A stretch of DNA of 64,000 nt from the human T2T-CHM13v2.0 reference genome, Homo sapiens, in the NCBI RefSeq assembly GCF_009914755.1, contig NC_060930.1; one strand, 5' to 3'. This document shows, one piece after another, positions 25,501 through 31,500 of the stretch. Every line of letters starts with the position of its first letter. Within the stretch, counting starts at the first letter, position 1. Under the pieces are notes generated by a model that worked only from the letters and a program-made list of their open reading frames with translations, did no database searches and had not been told where the DNA came from. The translations under genes were made by a program, and so were the position numbers.

Positions 25501-28500
25501 CTCCACTCTCATTGTAGATCTGATTGCTACTGATCTTCTTCCCAGTTTGACTGTAAGCTCTTTGAGGGGAGTGATCACACCTTGTATTTTTCTAGGACCT
25601 TCCTAAATCCACCCCATCTCCAGCACAGTGCTGGACACCTATTATACACAATGTTTTGGTTGTTTAAAGGAAAGGGTGATCATTCGTTGGGATGAGTATC
25701 AATAGCTAGCTAGTTATACATCATTCAGAACAGCTCTGTGCTCTGCTCATGAGCACCCAGGTCTGTGGGGAAGACAGGAGGCCTGGGACAAGGAGAGTCA
25801 GTCCCCTCGTGTTGAATTCAACCTCAGTAGAATTCTCCCAGTTCCCTAGGTCCCCAGTTGCCCCCTGTAGTTTTTCTTTTCTAGACATCCAGGGGTACAG
25901 AGCATTCACACCCCTTTCTTCTCTTTTAGAAGGAATGAATTGCATGAACAAGAACCACGGCTGTGCCCACATTTGCCGGGAGACACCCAAGGGGGGTATT
26001 GCCTGTGAATGCCGTCCTGGCTTTGAGCTTACCAAGAACCAACGGGACTGTAAATGTGAGATAATTGGGATGGCAGGTGGGGCAGTGGGGTCGGGGGTGA
26101 AAACATAGAGGAAGGGTATAGGGCTTCAGGAGCAAGAGGACAGGGCTGGGAGGAAAAGGGAGTATGGGGGAGGCAACTAGGCAAGGGGGCCAGTACCCAC
26201 ATTGTGGAAAACTGTGGATGCAGGGAGGAGCAAGCTGACAGGGCCCTGTCCTCTCTGTGCACAGTGACATGCAACTATGGTAACGGCGGCTGCCAGCACA
26301 CGTGTGATGACACAGAGCAGGGTCCCCGGTGCGGCTGCCATATCAAGTTTGTGCTCCATACCGACGGGAAGACATGCATCGGTGGGTGAGGCCAGGGGAG
26401 AACTCAGTCCACCTGAGATGGGGTGGGGGTGGGACCCTTTGGGAACCAGGGAAGTGGAGGAGTGCATGGGGCCCAGGTGCTGGGCACAGAGGGACTGGTG
26501 AGGGAGTTAAGACCCAGAAAATGCCAGGTCTAGTAAGGGACAACTCAAAGAGAGACTGAAGGGCTCCCCAGCCCTCTTCCCCTCCCCATCCCAGTGGTTT
26601 TACCACCCTGTTCCAGGAGCCTCACCACCCTCTTCATCCCAGGACAAAGTGTTGCCAAACTGGGAATAATTAGCAGAGTTGCTTATTGACCAAGGCTGTA
26701 GTTGAGAAGTGGGAAGAGATCTGGGGAAATGCATCTGCTTAGGCCTGACCAGAGGCCCTTGGTTGACTAGTGTGATAACAGAGGAATTATCAAAGCCCAG
26801 TGTCCCCACTCTGCAACTGAGGGTGGGACAGAGTGCTCCTTCCTGGAACAACCATCCCTGAACTGACTGACAGATGGGGTTTCCTGGCTCCAGGTATCTT
26901 TTTCCTCTTTATTCCTTCTCTCCTCACTCTCCTCCTGCAACTCCCCTTTCTACTCACCTCACCTTACCCCCCATTTCCTTCTCTCTCCTCCAGATGCCAG
27001 TGGTACTCCCTCTCAGCTCCACCAGCAACCCTGTTTCTTCCTCACCAACTCCAGCCTTCCATCTCTTACCTTGATTTGAGGTCCTCTTAATACCTGGATC
27101 CCTCTTCCTGAATTCTTAGGCCTTATCTCACATATTTTCAGGTACCCTAGATGAGTTTAATTCCTTAAAGTTAATTCCTAATTCCTTTAGCCTTTAGGTC
27201 TTTAGTGCTGAGAAGGATGATGGAACAAGGTTTCCCCTTGGAGAAGGGGGAAATGAAAGGAAGAGGTTTGGCTGAGAGAGAGGCTGTGTCTTTAGCCAGG
27301 CAGGGCATGAGCTTGCTGTGTGGGCATAGGTGTTTATGAATGACTGTCCATCTGGTGGGCTGTGGCATGCTGAGGATGGGGGTGTGTGAATCCAGTCACT
27401 GTGTATGAAGTTATGTATATCAGAGACATGACATTAACTGAGGAACTAGACTTTCCAGGGACCTGTCCCTTTCACTGCAGGAATAGGAACTGGAGAGCAG
27501 ATGATGCTCTTACAGGGCTCCCTCAGGCACTTGCTCCAGAGACTGGCACATCCATTTCTAAAGTCCCTATATAATTAAAATCTCCCCTGCCACGTTTCCC
27601 TCTGAATTAACTCTTCAAAGACCCCAGAACATTTTTAGGCTCTTCTCATTGCCTTCTTTGGGCTGGTGTGTTTCAGCTCCTTTCATTTTTTACTCATAGG
27701 TCTAATTATTTTGCTTTTCAAAGCTCTCACCACCTCCTGGACACATTCACACATCCCCAGTCTCTCAAAAGAAATTGTTTGCAGTGCCCAAAGAAAAGAT
27801 GCATGAGTCAGGGGCCAGGGATGTGAAGGTCTGATCCCTCTCTGATTTATTTCTGTTCAAAGTTCCAGACATGGTTGCTTCTGAAAACACCCTTACTGAG
27901 CTTGGGCTCTTCTCTAACTCAAGACCTGTTCCACCACTGGGCTGTGGCCAAATGAGGCAGAAAAGGCCAAATGAGGCAGAAAAGACCAAATGAGGCTATT
28001 CTGGGGTTTACAGCTATATTCTTTCCTAGTTCCTCTTCCTCTTCTCCAATAGAACTTATTTTACCTTGCCATATATCTAATTTTTCTGGCCATCCCTGGT
28101 AAGAGGAAACATCATTGCCTGGGGCCGTCAGGACATTCAGATTCGGTGGGAAGACTGAGAAGGCAGTATAGTTTAGCAGAAAGGGCGGCACCCTTTGGGA
28201 TTTGGGATTTTGTGGTTAGTAAGACTTGAGGGTGCATCCCAGCTTAGGCTTGAGCATGCTCTGTGGTACTGGGCACATGGTTGGTTGCCCTTTCTGAGAC
28301 TGTTTCAGTTTTTCAGTCACTTGCGGGGAGCTTGGCATCTTTGGGGATACCACCAGACAGGATAAGGATGAGGAGTGAAGCTGTCATAAGGGTCCCAGGG
28401 CTCATCATTTGGGGCTACTGGTTTGGGCTGGCAGTGGGGAGGAGAGGGTGGGGAGGGGTCCGGGGCCAGAGGGCCACAGTGGCTTCTGCCCAGCACCTAA

Positions 28501-31500
28501 ACAGCTTTTTTACAATGTCAAACAGGGGAAAGGCGGCTAGAGCAGCACATCCCCACTCAAGCCGTTTCTAATGGTAAATATGTCTGCTCTCTCCGCTTGC
28601 TCTCACTGGCTTGCTAGGGGAAGGGCTAACCCGCTGGGGCTCCCACTAACTGCATGCCCACTGGGCCCAGCCTGACTGGGCCCCAACTTGCCAGCAGGGC
28701 TATCCTGGCAGCCAGGGCACTGGGCCCATTGGGTGACAAGAAACCTGAGTCCCTAAGAGCTGGCCCGGGAGCTTTCATGTTGGTCTCGTCTTTGTTCCTG
28801 TCACTCTCCTTCTGCCCTTCCTCTTCTGCTGTCTCCTCCCACACCCACCTTCTAACACCCCACCCCACTCCCAGCCATCTGCTCCCCACCCCCCTCTACC
28901 CAGCCAGCCTCATCTTCCCTGTCATGCCCACTGTGCCACCTGAGATAGGGGTGCGATAGGATTAGATGCCATCCCCTCCTTGGGGCTTCTTTCTTGGGTT
29001 CTTACCCACATTAGTTCACAGTCCCAGCATCACTCACCATTCTCTCCTACCGTAATGGCTAAGAGCATGGCATGTGTGTTCAGGCAGACCTGAGTTTGAA
29101 TCCTGGCTCTGTTACTTTCTAACTGTATGACCTTAGGCAAGCTACTTTCCTCTCTGATCCTCAGTTTACTTTTCTATAAAATAACAGTCCTTCCTTAGGG
29201 TTGTAATGCTTGAGATAGTGCATGTAGAGCATCTACCTGGCAAGTGCCTGGCACAGCATAAGCACAGAGTAACTTGTGGTTTTAATATTGTGACCTAGAG
29301 AGCAAAGGGGTGAGACTATATGGTCCTGCTGCCCCACCCTGCTCTCAAGAATGCCGTCCTGCACAGGTGGGCGGCTATGCCCAGCTTTCTGTCCAGCCTG
29401 GGATGGACATTGTGCCAGCTCTGCTATTCCGTATCCTACATCCTTCAGAAGCTATCTGGCCTTGGCATAAGATCTCTGTGCCCCTCCCCCTGCTCCTGGG
29501 CTTAGTGGACCTCTTCTTATGCTAAAAGCACTCTTTAGCGGGTGGCTAGCCTTGGAACCTGAACTCAATGTTCCCTACTAGGTTCCTCCCATGGTCTTGG
29601 AGAGCCTCAGGAGAGACTAAAGTGGAAATGGCACAGACGATATCCCACTCCAGGTTGGGCTGTTCCACACATGGGCATTTGAGGGACCAGGGCATGGCCA
29701 GGGACCCATAGAGTTAGGCTTCTTTTGGAGCCCTGGCCTTCCTGTTCTCATTGGTGACAAGAGTTGGGCCTGAGTGTGGGGAGTCAGAGACTTAAGAAGA
29801 TGACAGTACATCCAGTACTGGTCTTATTCAATTCCCTTGATTCTGAGAACCATTCTTCTATCTTCCCTAGTGGAGGTCTTGGGATTCTTTCTCTCTAATG
29901 GGAGAATTCTAGTCACCCCAAGAGGACAGTATGCACCACCTCCACAGTCTCTGTATCAGGGGCCTTCACTGTTTGAACTAATGGCTTTTCCTTGGACACA
30001 TCTGACTTTCCCAAGCTACCATTTAAACCTGTTTTTCTCCTGCTGTGAATTCAGAAAATAGGGAGAGTGACCCATCGACACTCCTCCTACTCTGACCTTT
30101 TAGTGAAAGGGAAAACTTACCAGTTAAGAGGGAGCAGCATAAGAGACTTAGCTAAAATAAGGATTTAGGTCTTATCTAGCTCTGAGGTTCTCTAACTCTT
30201 TCACTAACCTTTTTACACCCTTCCTTCTCCTCTGGATTCTTCTCTTTCTTTTGCTTCTCCCCTCTCCTATACAACATCTCCCCATTAGCAGAGTAAAACA
30301 ACAAAACAGCCAGCTTATCTCCATCTAGAACTAAAAGGAGGGTTTGGGAGGAGTTGAAGGTAGATTAACCCAGTATGTGCTACCTCCTCTGAGGATGAGC
30401 AGTCAGTCGATCCTGGAAGTGGGATCTTTCTTAAGACAGCTAGGCAGCGGGGAAGGGGAAGATAAATTGATGGGTATCCTTCAGTTGCCTTAGGAATGGC
30501 CCGGCTCATTCTTTCCAATCCACTTACAATAAGATTGTCCCACCACAATCCCCACCCACCCACCAAAGACATAGTGGAAAGAGGAAGAAACTCCTATCTG
30601 TCCCTTCTGGTTCCCTGGCAGCCAGAACCACCCTCACTTAGCTCCCATCCCTCCCTACTGCCCCCCGCCCCACCTCCTCCACCCCCTCGGCACATTCCTG
30701 CCTGACAGCTCTGGCTTGTACCTGCCTCACTGCTGTCCACCTTGTTTCAATCAAGTAGGGGGCAGGGAAGTGGACTGCTTGGCTGTACTTGTGAGGGGAT
30801 GGGGGTTGGGAGTGATGGGAGGAAAGGGGCTGGGAGCCTCCCTTGGCTTAATGCTCCTTCTAAAGCACAGAGAGGCAGCTGAGGCCTTCCCTCGGGCCTC
30901 TGTGGTCTCCACTACCCTCAGAGTTTGGGACTCCTCCAGGCTTGTAACCTCATTACCATCCCCCACTTCCCTCCTAAACAGAGACCTGTGCTGTCAACAA
31001 CGGGGGCTGTGACAGTAAGTGCCATGATGCAGCGACTGGTGTCCACTGCACCTGCCCTGTGGGCTTCATGCTGCAGCCAGACAGGAAGACGTGCAAAGGT
31101 AAGGACTTTGAGAGGACAGAAGCAGAGTGACCTTTGGTAAGGGGCTGAGGTTGGGACCAGAGATAGGGTGCCTATTAGGGGATGACACCTCCTCAACCTC
31201 CTTCTTATGAAGAACCCAGGACATAGCTAAGGGTTGTCTCCTATCTGCCTGTTTCATCTCAGTTCAAGGGACAGAGAAGTCCAGCCAGTTCCTTAGTGCC
31301 CCCTTCCCCTACCCCACCTTGTTTCCCTACTCTCATTCCTATCCCCCATGGGTCCCTAACCCTCTTAGTTAATGGACATGCGATTCACATTTGCTCCTGG
31401 GTCTGGAAGGATATTTGAGCCCTGACTGTGTGTGTGCATGAGGTCACAGGTGTGTTCCATAACCTTCTTACCCCACATTCCTCAGACCTTCCCAGTGGGC

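What the first reader, a model, noticed from the sequence alone, without database searches (positions are those of the whole stretch)
28500..28660. Hidden 48-nt cassette exon in SCUBE3 intron 6 with a stacked MBNL/QKI/RBFOX module
Seen: acceptor ...ttttttacaatgtcaaacag|, a 48-nt stop-free exon (28526-28573) and donor ATG|GTAAAT. Phase 1-1 matches exons 6 and 7, so inclusion inserts [16 protein letters not shown] between EGF5 and EGF6 (1009 aa product). Inclusion adds a dibasic RR and, across the junction with exon 7, a new N-E-T N-glycosylation sequon. Within 85 nt downstream lie a YGCY cluster (~28585-28615), CTAAC (28626-28630) and ACTAAC (28645-28650) abutting TGCATG (28651-28656). Established: MBNL (YGCY), QKI (ACUAAC) and RBFOX (UGCAUG) sites downstream of an exon generally promote inclusion. 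Recalled, not checked: SCUBE2 has a linker insert at the equivalent position. Inference: a tissue-regulated switch altering the EGF array of a secreted growth-factor co-receptor. The exon is not part of the 993-aa form; it may already appear in predicted isoforms.
Basis: partly seen in the sequence, partly recalled or inferred. Interest (0 to 1): 0.8.

Follow-up and report, generated by a model that had tools for sequence, protein, structure and literature searches.

The report
Annotated, ancient SCUBE3 linker cassette exon
The 48-base exon is real but already annotated; it is an old, conserved alternative exon that puts a short sugar-bearing spacer between two EGF modules of the secreted protein SCUBE3, and how its use is controlled is still untested.

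Summary
Window 28526-28573 is an AG|…|GT-flanked, stop-free 48-nt exon in phase 1-1. Including it turns the 993-aa SCUBE3 into a 1009-aa protein with [16 protein letters not shown] between EGF5 and EGF6 and an N-E-T sequon at the junction.

It is not hidden. The hub's RefSeq table lists exactly this exon in other SCUBE3 transcripts. Predicted SCUBE3 isoforms from mammals, birds, a crocodilian, frogs, a newt, a lungfish, a paddlefish and teleosts carry the same insert.

G1 and E2 are invariant. The terminal N followed by E-T/S is kept in 35 of 37 linkers. The RR dibasic is not conserved.

Human SCUBE1 and SCUBE2 each have a 90-nt phase 1-1 exon in the same intron. The SCUBE2 exon is described in print (PMC10214685).

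The downstream YGCY cluster, TAAC…ACTAAC and TGCATG are all present, and the combination occurs nowhere else in the 64 kb. Their conservation and their binding by MBNL, QKI or RBFOX could not be tested. No paper found links them to SCUBE3.

Verdict: a known annotated exon, deeply conserved and uncharacterised in print, with a plausible but unproven regulatory module.

The parts
26265..26381 (+). SCUBE3 exon 6 (EGF5), upstream constitutive exon; ends in phase 1
   Evidence: Hub annotation; (phase table...HTDGKTCI).
28436..28473 (+). G-run block (GGGG AGGAGA GGG T GGGG A GGGG TCC GGGG) 52-89 nt upstream of the acceptor. It fits a G-quadruplex / hnRNP H/F-type G-run motif and is a possible extra intronic splicing element (inferred).
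   Evidence: one of 3 G4-pattern hits in intron 6 and 16 on the + strand of the window. Six GGG runs in the 100 nt upstream, a density reached by 2.8% of 100-nt windows.
28496..28525 (+). 3' splice-site region: a short T6 tract, then purine-rich sequence, then CAG. This is a weak polypyrimidine tract. An upstream AG at 28503-28504 would give a 69-nt open variant.
   Evidence: 11 of 20 pyrimidines at -23..-4, tied lowest of the 22 acceptors scored (range 11-18).
28526..28573 (+). 48-nt alternative cassette exon, phase 1-1, encoding [16 protein letters not shown]
   Evidence: hub annotation ('exons of other transcripts 28526-28573'); orthologous inserts.
28574..28579 (+). 5' splice site, ATG|GTAAAT
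   Evidence: 6 of 9 matches to the U1-complementary 9-mer, typical for this gene (range 5-8).
28585..28615 (+). YGCY cluster (TGCT, CGCT, TGCT, TGCT) in a CU-rich stretch, +12 to +42 nt from the donor. It is a candidate MBNL site; the CU-rich context would equally suit PTBP.
   Evidence: 4 in 45 nt; 0.7% of windows reach this. (6 YGCY in the first 100 nt; the other exons have 0-3).
28626..28650 (+). CTAAC (TAAC half-site at 28627-28630), a 14-nt gap, then ACTAAC (28645-28650). This has the form of a bipartite QKI response element. ACTAAC also equals a branch-point consensus.
   Evidence: ACTAAC occurs 2 times on the + strand in 64 kb.. The bipartite-element definition is recalled, not from a call.
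28651..28656 (+). TGCATG, the RBFOX consensus, +78 nt from the donor and abutting ACTAAC
   Evidence: 21 in the window. (3.3% of positions have one within the next 100 nt). In the minimum-energy fold, ACUAACUGCAUG lies in a hairpin loop, but that fold is no better than shuffles (z -0.97).
30982..31098 (+). SCUBE3 exon 7 (EGF6), downstream constitutive exon. Its first residues E-T complete the N-E-T sequon.
   Evidence: Hub annotation. Pfam places the start of the EGF6 match at the Cys right after E-T in the mink orthologue.

Best explanation
Window 28526-28573 is a genuine alternative coding exon of SCUBE3. It is already annotated and dates back at least to the common ancestor of bony vertebrates.

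Shown: when spliced in between exon 6 (EGF5) and exon 7 (EGF6), it keeps the frame. It replaces the tight 3-residue EGF5-EGF6 junction (Cys-I-E-T-Cys) with a 19-residue, cysteine-free linker. The one universally kept feature of that linker, besides the opening G-E, is a terminal Asn that forms an N-x-T/S glycosylation sequon with the first residues of EGF6.

Inferred: the protein effect is a glycosylated, probably flexible spacer or hinge between EGF1-5 and EGF6-9 of this secreted co-receptor. It is probably not a conserved dibasic cleavage site.

Inferred: the exon is short (48 nt) and has the weakest polypyrimidine tract in the gene, so skipping is the default and inclusion needs activators. 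The best candidate enhancer is the block at +12 to +83 nt downstream (YGCY cluster, TAAC…ACTAAC, TGCATG). In that position it would promote inclusion where MBNL, QKI and/or RBFOX proteins are abundant, such as muscle and mesenchymal or osteogenic cells.

It is the positional counterpart of the 90-nt linker exon of SCUBE1 and SCUBE2.
For: Exon anatomy and frame. Annotation: the hub table lists the exact exon in other RefSeq transcripts.

Conservation, first search:
- Of 62 proteins found with the EGF5 exon, 18 carry the 16-aa-type insert at this junction. One of them (newt) is extended upstream.
- 22 have the plain E-T/E-S junction, 4 have the 30-aa type, 4 have other linkers, and 14 are fragments or unmatched.

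Conservation, second search:
- It adds teleosts, birds and others.
- Across all 283 retrieved proteins, 37 linkers start with [GE]E[RK][RSHKE]. Of these, 35 end in N-E-T/S directly before the first Cys of EGF6.
- 27 of them are exactly 16 aa, giving 21 distinct sequences. G1 and E2 are invariant.
- E239, N253 and E254 are invariant in a 20-species alignment.

Transcript-level hint: one unnamed record (P0181) is 662 aa from a contig of 2,105 nt. That must be a spliced transcript, and it contains the insert.

Splice-site and motif evidence:
- Weak acceptor: 11 of 20 pyrimidines.
- Motif block unique in the window: 35 of 63,900 positions on + and 0 on -.
- The cassette is the only one of 22 exons with ACTAAY, or with more than 3 YGCY, in the 100 nt downstream.

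Family context:
- The SCUBE2 30-aa exon between EGF5 and EGF6 carries an N-glycosylation site and a furin site (PMC10214685, passages).
- Intact 90-nt phase 1-1 exons lie in the same intron of human SCUBE1 and SCUBE2.

That downstream RBFOX, QKI and MBNL sites generally activate inclusion is established knowledge, recalled here and not taken from a call.
Against: - All orthologous evidence comes from predicted protein models, some of which may be propagated by homology. No human junction read, cDNA or peptide was seen here.
- Sequence alone does not single the exon out: there are 123 open phase-1 pseudo-exons in intron 6.
- Several lineages show other or no inserts in the models retrieved: squamates P0037, P0039 and P0042; coelacanth P0020; elephant shark P0271 and P0273; platypus P0054.
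- Conservation of the intronic motifs could not be tested, because no vertebrate genome DNA other than the window's own was available.
- The motif set was picked post hoc.
- The paralogous SCUBE1 and SCUBE2 linker exons have no TGCATG or ACTAAY within 300 nt downstream, so the module is not a family feature.
- The YGCY cluster sits in CU-rich sequence that would fit PTBP equally well, and ACTAAC is also a branch-point consensus.
- No paper links SCUBE3 splicing to these factors. Supplementary tables of splicing studies were not searched.
- The mouse VEGA catalogue quoted in PMC3558425 (passages) lists coding forms of 993 and 828 aa only.
Confidence: 0.7

Rival explanations
1. The exon is real and conserved, but the downstream MBNL/QKI/RBFOX reading is wrong or incomplete. 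The motifs could be there by chance, or could serve other factors. Candidates are PTBP on the CU-rich YGCY stretch, hnRNP H/F on the upstream G-runs, or ACTAAC as a branch-point-like SF1 site. Inclusion would then be set by something else.
For: - The motif set was chosen after looking.
- The YGCY cluster lies in tctgctctctccgcttgctctc.
- A G-run/G4-pattern block lies 52-89 nt upstream.
- The paralogous linker exons lack the module.
- No literature support.
- The local fold is not special (z -0.97).
Against: - The three motif classes co-occur nowhere else in 64 kb on either strand.
- ACTAAC is rare here, with 2 on the + strand.
- The TAAC-14 nt-ACTAAC spacing fits the recalled bipartite QKI element.
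- The TGCATG lies at +78 nt, within the range where RBFOX sites activate (recalled).
Confidence: 0.2
2. The cassette is splicing noise, or an annotation artefact carried from genome to genome by homology-based gene prediction, and it has no function.
For: - Intron 6 holds 123 open phase-1 pseudo-exons, 7 of them with comparable crude splice sites.
- All orthologues seen are predicted models.
- The reference isoform and the published descriptions lack the exon (PMC10214685, PMC3558425; passages).
Against: - An unselected 48-nt intronic stretch would not keep its length, frame and both splice sites from teleosts to mammals.
- G1 and E2 are invariant across 21 distinct 16-mers, and the terminal N-E-T/S is kept in 35 of 37 linkers.
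- The sequences differ between lineages, so they are not copies of one model.
- One record looks like an assembled spliced transcript containing the insert (P0181).
Confidence: 0.05
3. The main function of the insert is a protease switch. The RR dibasic would allow proprotein-convertase cleavage that releases EGF1-5, as proposed for the furin site in the SCUBE2 linker.
For: - Human, most mammalian, lungfish and several frog inserts read GERR.
- The SCUBE2 linker has R276xxR279 and is reported to allow release of an EGF1-5 fragment (PMC10214685, passages).
- The SCUBE1 and SCUBE2 exons end in [10 protein letters not shown].
Against: - Position 4 is R in only 11 of 21 distinct 16-mers (S 7, H 2, K 1). 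A dibasic pair at positions 3-4 is present in 12 of 21.
- G-E-R-R has no Arg at P4, so it is not the minimal furin RxxR (read from the sequence; the motif definition is taken from PMC10214685).
- There is no sequence similarity between the 16-aa and the 30-aa linkers.
Confidence: 0.05

Closest known systems
SCUBE2 30-aa linker exon between EGF5 and EGF6 (PMC10214685; human locus on contig C11)
   Same: It lies in the same intron of a paralogous gene and has the same phase (1-1). It is a single small exon that lengthens the EGF5-EGF6 junction with a Cys-free segment carrying an N-glycosylation sequon.
   Different: - It is 90 nt / 30 aa rather than 48 nt / 16 aa.
- It has a strong polypyrimidine tract.
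- Its sequon is internal (N-T-T), and it ends in the furin-type [10 protein letters not shown], which SCUBE3 lacks.
- There is no alignable similarity to the SCUBE3 insert.
- It is part of the reference SCUBE2 protein.
- It has no TGCATG or ACTAAY within 300 nt downstream.
SCUBE1 90-nt linker exon (predicted 1018-aa 'isoform X1' forms; human locus on contig C22)
   Same: It is an exon in the same intron and the same phase. It is absent from the published SCUBE1 form: PMC10214685 calls the 30-aa stretch a difference between SCUBE2 and SCUBE1. It is therefore apparently also alternative.
   Different: It is near-identical to the SCUBE2 type ([30 protein letters not shown]) and highly conserved from sharks to mammals. 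It is unrelated in sequence to the SCUBE3 cassette. It lacks the downstream module, with only one GCATG in a GT-rich tract.
Short cassette exons activated by downstream intronic UGCAUG / ACUAAY / YGCY elements, i.e. RBFOX-, QKI- and MBNL-dependent muscle and mesenchymal exons (recalled general knowledge; no call)
   Same: A short exon with a weak 3' splice site. The motifs lie within 100 nt downstream of the donor, the position associated with activation.
   Different: Binding, factor dependence, tissue pattern and motif conservation are all untested for SCUBE3. Known targets are defined by CLIP and knockdown data, which are not available here.

Membership tests
In-frame alternative cassette exon | Canonical AG/GT splice sites, and a length that preserves the frame between the flanking exons | tested here: met
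   CAG|…|GTAAAT, 48 nt, phase 1-1, 993 to 1009 aa with no stop.
In-frame alternative cassette exon | Present in some transcripts of the gene and skipped in others | not testable with these tools
   The hub's RefSeq table (not a call) lists the exon in other transcripts, and NM_152753.4 skips it. Insert-bearing and insert-free predicted isoforms coexist across species. No RNA-seq or cDNA was available.
In-frame alternative cassette exon | Conserved as coding sequence across species | tested here: met
   the insert is found from teleosts to mammals, 27 linkers are exactly 16 aa, G1 and E2 are invariant, and N-E-T/S is kept in 35 of 37.
RBFOX-activated exon | (U)GCAUG in the intron within about 300 nt downstream of the exon | tested here: met
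   TGCATG at 28651-28656, +78 nt. The distance rule is recalled.
RBFOX-activated exon | Motif conserved in orthologous introns; RBFOX CLIP signal; inclusion falls on RBFOX depletion | not testable with these tools
   No vertebrate genomes other than the window's own, and no CLIP or knockdown data. The literature search was negative.
QKI-activated exon | ACUAAY core with a UAAY half-site within about 20 nt (bipartite element; recalled definition), located downstream of the exon | tested here: met
   TAAC at 28627-28630 and ACTAAC at 28645-28650, with a 14-nt gap.
QKI-activated exon | QKI binding and QKI-dependent inclusion | not testable with these tools
   The literature search was negative.
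MBNL-activated exon | A cluster of YGCY motifs downstream of the exon | tested here: met
   4 in 45 nt (0.7% of windows reach this) and 6 in 100 nt (1.0% of windows).
MBNL-activated exon | MBNL binding and MBNL-dependent inclusion | not testable with these tools
   The literature search was negative.
SCUBE1/SCUBE2-type 30-aa linker exon | An exon in the EGF5-EGF6 intron, phase 1-1 | tested here: met
SCUBE1/SCUBE2-type 30-aa linker exon | Sequence similarity to E[KR]DE…N[AST][TS]S…[10 protein letters not shown] | tested here: not met
   MAFFT places the 16-aa inserts against the 30-aa linkers with long gaps and no shared block.
SCUBE1/SCUBE2-type 30-aa linker exon | Furin-type basic site (RxxR / KRVKRR) | tested here: not met
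   G-E-R-R has no P4 Arg, and position 4 is basic in only 12 of 21 distinct inserts.
SCUBE1/SCUBE2-type 30-aa linker exon | N-glycosylation sequon in the linker | tested here: met
   for SCUBE3 (N-E-T at the junction). for SCUBE1/2 (internal N-A-T / N-T-T). Actual glycosylation was not tested.

The most novel reading that the evidence does not exclude
All three vertebrate SCUBE genes may keep a small phase 1-1 'linker exon' in the EGF5-EGF6 intron, inherited from the pre-duplication gene. In SCUBE1 and SCUBE2 it would be a glycosylated, furin-cleavable 30-aa hinge. In SCUBE3 it would have been remodelled into a 16-aa hinge that keeps only the glycan. That hinge would be switched on in muscle and mesenchymal or osteogenic cells by a combined MBNL/QKI/RBFOX intronic enhancer, changing the geometry or oligomerisation of the EGF array and so the BMP/TGF-beta/FGF co-receptor activity. 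The literature treats the linker as a SCUBE2-only peculiarity.
Probability: 0.25. Interest if true: 0.5.

Novelty: already known. Interest (0 to 1): 0.3.

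Why it matters
SCUBE3 loss causes a recessive skeletal and dental growth disorder through defective BMP signalling (PMC10214685, passages). All functional work appears to use the 993-aa form.

A deeply conserved isoform with an extra glycosylated linker in the EGF array means variant interpretation should include this exon and its splice sites. 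It also means the two isoforms may differ in activity or processing.

At the family level, the published SCUBE2-versus-SCUBE1 contrast is a matter of isoform choice, not gene content. Intact linker exons sit in the same intron of human SCUBE1, SCUBE2 and SCUBE3.

None of this is a new kind of biology. It is an annotated but unstudied alternative exon.

Tried and rejected

2. Structure: an AlphaFold2 model of the 1009-aa mink orthologue from a 20-sequence alignment gave mean pLDDT 39.3 and pTM 0.21. That is too poor to say anything about the linker, so no fold search was run and no structural claim is made.

3. RNA families: Rfam over 27500-29700 gave only a mir-1296 match on the - strand (28655-28735), at 27.4 bits against a gathering score of 100. 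This is treated as chance.

4. RNA fold of 28500-28700: z-score -0.97, with 32 of 200 shuffles folding as well. There is no evidence of selected structure.

5. Homology of the 16-aa insert to the 30-aa SCUBE1/2 linker: no similarity. Common descent therefore rests on position and phase alone.

6. Paralogue test of the regulatory module: human SCUBE1 and SCUBE2 linker exons have no TGCATG or ACTAAY within 300 nt downstream. This neither supports nor refutes the SCUBE3 module.

7. Literature:
- SCUBE3 with 'alternative splicing' (19 papers), 'exon inclusion' (1), 'isoform' (84, of which 25 listed), RBFOX (16), QKI (7), MBNL (7) and 'cassette exon' (0), plus the peptide start GERRLEQH (0).
- From listings and the passages read, none describes this exon.
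- PMC13075997 only notes low SCUBE3 transcription in K562.
- PMC3204225 failed to validate a predicted SCUBE3 isoform difference in FSHD cells.
- Supplementary tables of splicing-factor studies, where such an exon would be listed, were not searched.

8. Splice-site strength: only crude counts were possible (pyrimidines at -23..-4, matches to the U1-complementary 9-mer). No MaxEnt-type model was available.

Full report
**1. The observation**

The sequence at the stated coordinates is as described. The acceptor reads ...agcttttttacaatgtcaaacag|GGGAAAGGCGGC, the exon is 28526-28573 (48 nt), and the donor is ATG|gtaaat.

Splicing the annotated coding exons in a script gives 993 aa. Every coding exon from exon 2 to exon 20 starts and ends in phase 1. 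Adding the cassette gives 1009 aa without a stop, reading ...[34 protein letters not shown]. The insert, the RR and the junctional N-E-T sequon are therefore correct.

The downstream motifs are also where stated:
- YGCY at 28585, 28594, 28598 and 28612
- CTAAC at 28626
- ACTAAC at 28645
- TGCATG at 28651, directly abutting ACTAAC

**2. Is it more than chance?**

The exon by itself is not. Intron 6 contains 626 AG…GT pairs of 30-150 nt with length divisible by three. Of these, 123 are open in phase 1. Seven, including the cassette and a 69-nt variant using an upstream AG, have crude splice-site scores at least as good. The acceptor has only 11 of 20 pyrimidines, tied for the weakest in the gene. 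The donor is average.

The exon is singled out by two things. First, the hub's RefSeq table lists exactly 28526-28573 among 'exons of other transcripts'. Second, the exon is conserved across species (section 3).

The motif block is locally unusual:
- ACTAAC occurs twice and TGCATG 21 times on the + strand of the window.
- Four YGCY in 45 nt is reached by 0.7% of windows.
- TGCATG + ACTAAY + at least 6 YGCY within 100 nt is met by 35 of 63,900 start positions on the + strand and by none on the - strand.
- The only other TGCATG+ACTAAY locus, near 13.4 kb, has no YGCY, so all 35 lie at the cassette.
- Among the 22 exons, only the cassette has ACTAAY, or more than three YGCY, within 100 nt downstream. 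GCATG is present downstream of 4 of the 22.

The motif classes were chosen after looking, so these figures are an upper bound on significance.

**3. Conservation**

The large protein collection holds vertebrate proteins. The first search used the EGF5 exon (42 aa, including two intron-encoded residues at each end) and returned 62 proteins. Reading the EGF5-EGF6 junction in each gave the following:

| Junction type | Proteins (of 62) |
|---|---|
| 16-aa-type insert (one, a newt, extended upstream) | 18 |
| Plain E-T or E-S junction | 22 |
| 30-aa linker (cartilaginous-fish proteins labelled SCUBE1) | 4 |
| Other linkers (Rhinophrynus ×2, a sea snake, a monitor lizard) | 4 |
| Fragments or unmatched | 14 |

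Examples of the insert:

| Taxon | Insert |
|---|---|
| Mink, cheetah | [16 protein letters not shown] |
| Vole | [16 protein letters not shown] |
| Tenrec | GERKLEQPGPPQAISN |
| Gharial | GERHLQQHATSQTFSN |
| Emu | GERHFQQHVILETFSN |
| Rana | GERRSDQTPSAPILAN |
| Lungfish | [16 protein letters not shown] |
| Paddlefish | GERSVQQQASPQQLPN |

A second search, from the paddlefish junction, added teleosts and more birds. One teleost form is GERSVQSQAAPQLFPN. Cyprinids and catfish have 17-aa forms such as EERSIQQQLHQPQLLPN.

Across all 283 retrieved proteins:
- 37 linkers begin with [GE]E[RK][RSHKE].
- 35 of the 37 end in N-E-T/S directly before the first Cys of EGF6.
- The exceptions are an anchovy model that keeps N-E-T but continues aberrantly, and a 10-aa cod model.
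- 27 linkers are exactly 16 aa, giving 21 distinct sequences in which G1 and E2 are invariant.
- Position 4 is R in 11, S in 7, H in 2 and K in 1 of the 21 distinct sequences.
- In a 20-species full-length alignment, E239, N253, E254 and C256 are invariant.

N16 is invariant among the 16-mers by the way they were selected. The unbiased figure is 35 of 37.

One unnamed record of 662 aa comes from a 2,105-nt contig. That can only be spliced RNA, and it contains the insert.

An unselected 48-nt piece of intron would not keep its length, frame, ends and splice sites over this span. The exon is therefore under purifying selection and dates at least to the bony-vertebrate ancestor.

Caveats:
- Almost all of these are predicted models.
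- Squamate, coelacanth, platypus and elephant-shark models in the hits lack the canonical insert.

**4. What the insert does to the protein**

Pfam places the start of the EGF6 match at the Cys immediately after E-T in the mink orthologue. The insert is therefore inter-domain. It lengthens the Cys-to-Cys junction from 3 to 19 residues with a Cys-free segment rich in P, Q, S and E.

The features kept everywhere are the opening G-E-(R/K) and the terminal Asn of the sequon. The dibasic RR is not kept. The most economical reading (inferred) is a glycosylated spacer or hinge rather than a conserved cleavage site.

An AlphaFold2 attempt was too poor to use (mean pLDDT 39.3).

**5. Family context**

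The review 'The biology of SCUBE' (PMC10214685; passages read) makes four relevant statements:
- This stretch has an N-glycosylation site and a minimal furin site (R276xxR279).
- It calls this a major difference from SCUBE1.
- Its relevance is unknown.

A search from a catshark junction found the 30-aa linker (EKDEAAIE…NAT…[10 protein letters not shown]) in many proteins labelled SCUBE1 isoform X1 (about 1018 aa) and SCUBE2, from sharks to mammals. In total, 75 of the 283 retrieved proteins carry this type.

The window's own genome is searchable. In the EGF5-EGF6 introns of the two paralogues I found intact 90-nt phase 1-1 exons with good splice sites:
- Contig C22 (SCUBE1): [30 protein letters not shown]
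- Contig C11 (SCUBE2): [30 protein letters not shown]

So all three human SCUBE genes have a small exon in this intron. The reference forms of SCUBE1 and SCUBE3 skip it.

The 16-aa and 30-aa linkers show no alignable similarity. Common descent is suggested only by position, phase and the presence of a sequon.

**6. Regulation**

The following general rules are recalled, not taken from a call:
- Short exons with weak 3' splice sites depend on enhancers.
- RBFOX (UGCAUG), QKI (ACUAAY plus a UAAY half-site) and MBNL (YGCY clusters) bound downstream of an exon promote its inclusion.

The SCUBE3 block fits all three in form:
- YGCY at +12 to +39 nt from the donor
- TAAC, a 14-nt gap, then ACTAAC at +54 to +77
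- TGCATG at +78

Points against, or left open:
- Motif conservation could not be checked, because no other vertebrate DNA was available.
- The paralogous exons lack the module.
- The YGCYs sit in CU-rich sequence that would equally suit PTBP.
- ACTAAC is also a branch-point consensus.
- A G-run/G4-pattern block lies 52-89 nt upstream.
- The region's predicted fold is unremarkable.
- No paper found connects SCUBE3 splicing with these factors. Supplementary target lists were not searched.

I rate regulation by at least one of the three factors at roughly even odds, and the full three-factor module at about one in four.

**7. Novelty and verdict**

The exon is already annotated, in human RefSeq models and in predicted isoforms of many vertebrates, so 'hidden' is wrong and the finding is not new as a feature.

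It appears undescribed in print:
- The searches above found nothing, and the peptide search gave 0 papers.
- The SCUBE review does not mention it.
- A mouse Scube3 paper lists only 993-aa and 828-aa coding forms (PMC3558425, passages).

- The depth of conservation.
- The conserved element is the junctional glycosylation sequon, not the RR.
- A linker exon exists in the same intron of all three human SCUBE genes.

Interest is modest: a solid, conserved but ordinary alternative exon with an untested regulatory hypothesis.

Noticed in passing
L006 (own genome, contig C22, - strand), exon at 2780-2869 of the reverse-complemented locus: Human SCUBE1 has an intact 90-nt phase 1-1 exon ([30 protein letters not shown]) in its EGF5-EGF6 intron, with a good polypyrimidine tract and a GT donor. 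It is almost identical from sharks to mammals in predicted 'isoform X1' proteins. The SCUBE review treats the 30-aa linker as a SCUBE2-versus-SCUBE1 difference.
   Followed up: partly
window 28436-28473 (+): A run of G-tracts (GGGG…GGG…GGGG…GGGG…GGGG) matching a G-quadruplex pattern lies 52-89 nt upstream of the cassette acceptor. It may be an hnRNP H/F-type element. The G-run density is reached by 2.8% of 100-nt windows.
   Followed up: partly
window 28503-28525 (+): An upstream AG at 28503-28504 would give a 69-nt, still open, phase-compatible version of the exon. A newt model (P0046) and a dragonet model (P0195) have upstream-extended inserts.
   Followed up: no
window 28655-28735 (-): There is a weak Rfam match to mir-1296 (27.4 bits; gathering score 100) over a stretch with three copies of ACTGGGCCC. 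It is most likely chance.
   Followed up: partly
window 13398-13505 (+): This is the only other place in the window where TGCATG and ACTAAY fall within 100 nt of each other. It is an AT-rich stretch in SCUBE3 intron 1, and no exon is annotated there on the + strand.
   Followed up: no
P0003, P0012, P0039, P0042: Some frog (Rhinophrynus) and squamate models have different linkers at the same junction (EDPTETMEQHAVSTGFTKS, GKETMEDSIT, ESSSDKT). Many Ensembl-derived teleost models read 'GES…' straight through the exon 6 donor. These are either mis-predictions or lineage-specific changes.
   Followed up: no
L006, 150 nt downstream of the SCUBE1 linker exon: The intron after the SCUBE1 linker exon is a long GT/TG-rich tract (…tgtgtgtgtgtgcacatgtgtg…) with one GGCATG. 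This is a different possible regulatory signature from the SCUBE3 one.
   Followed up: no
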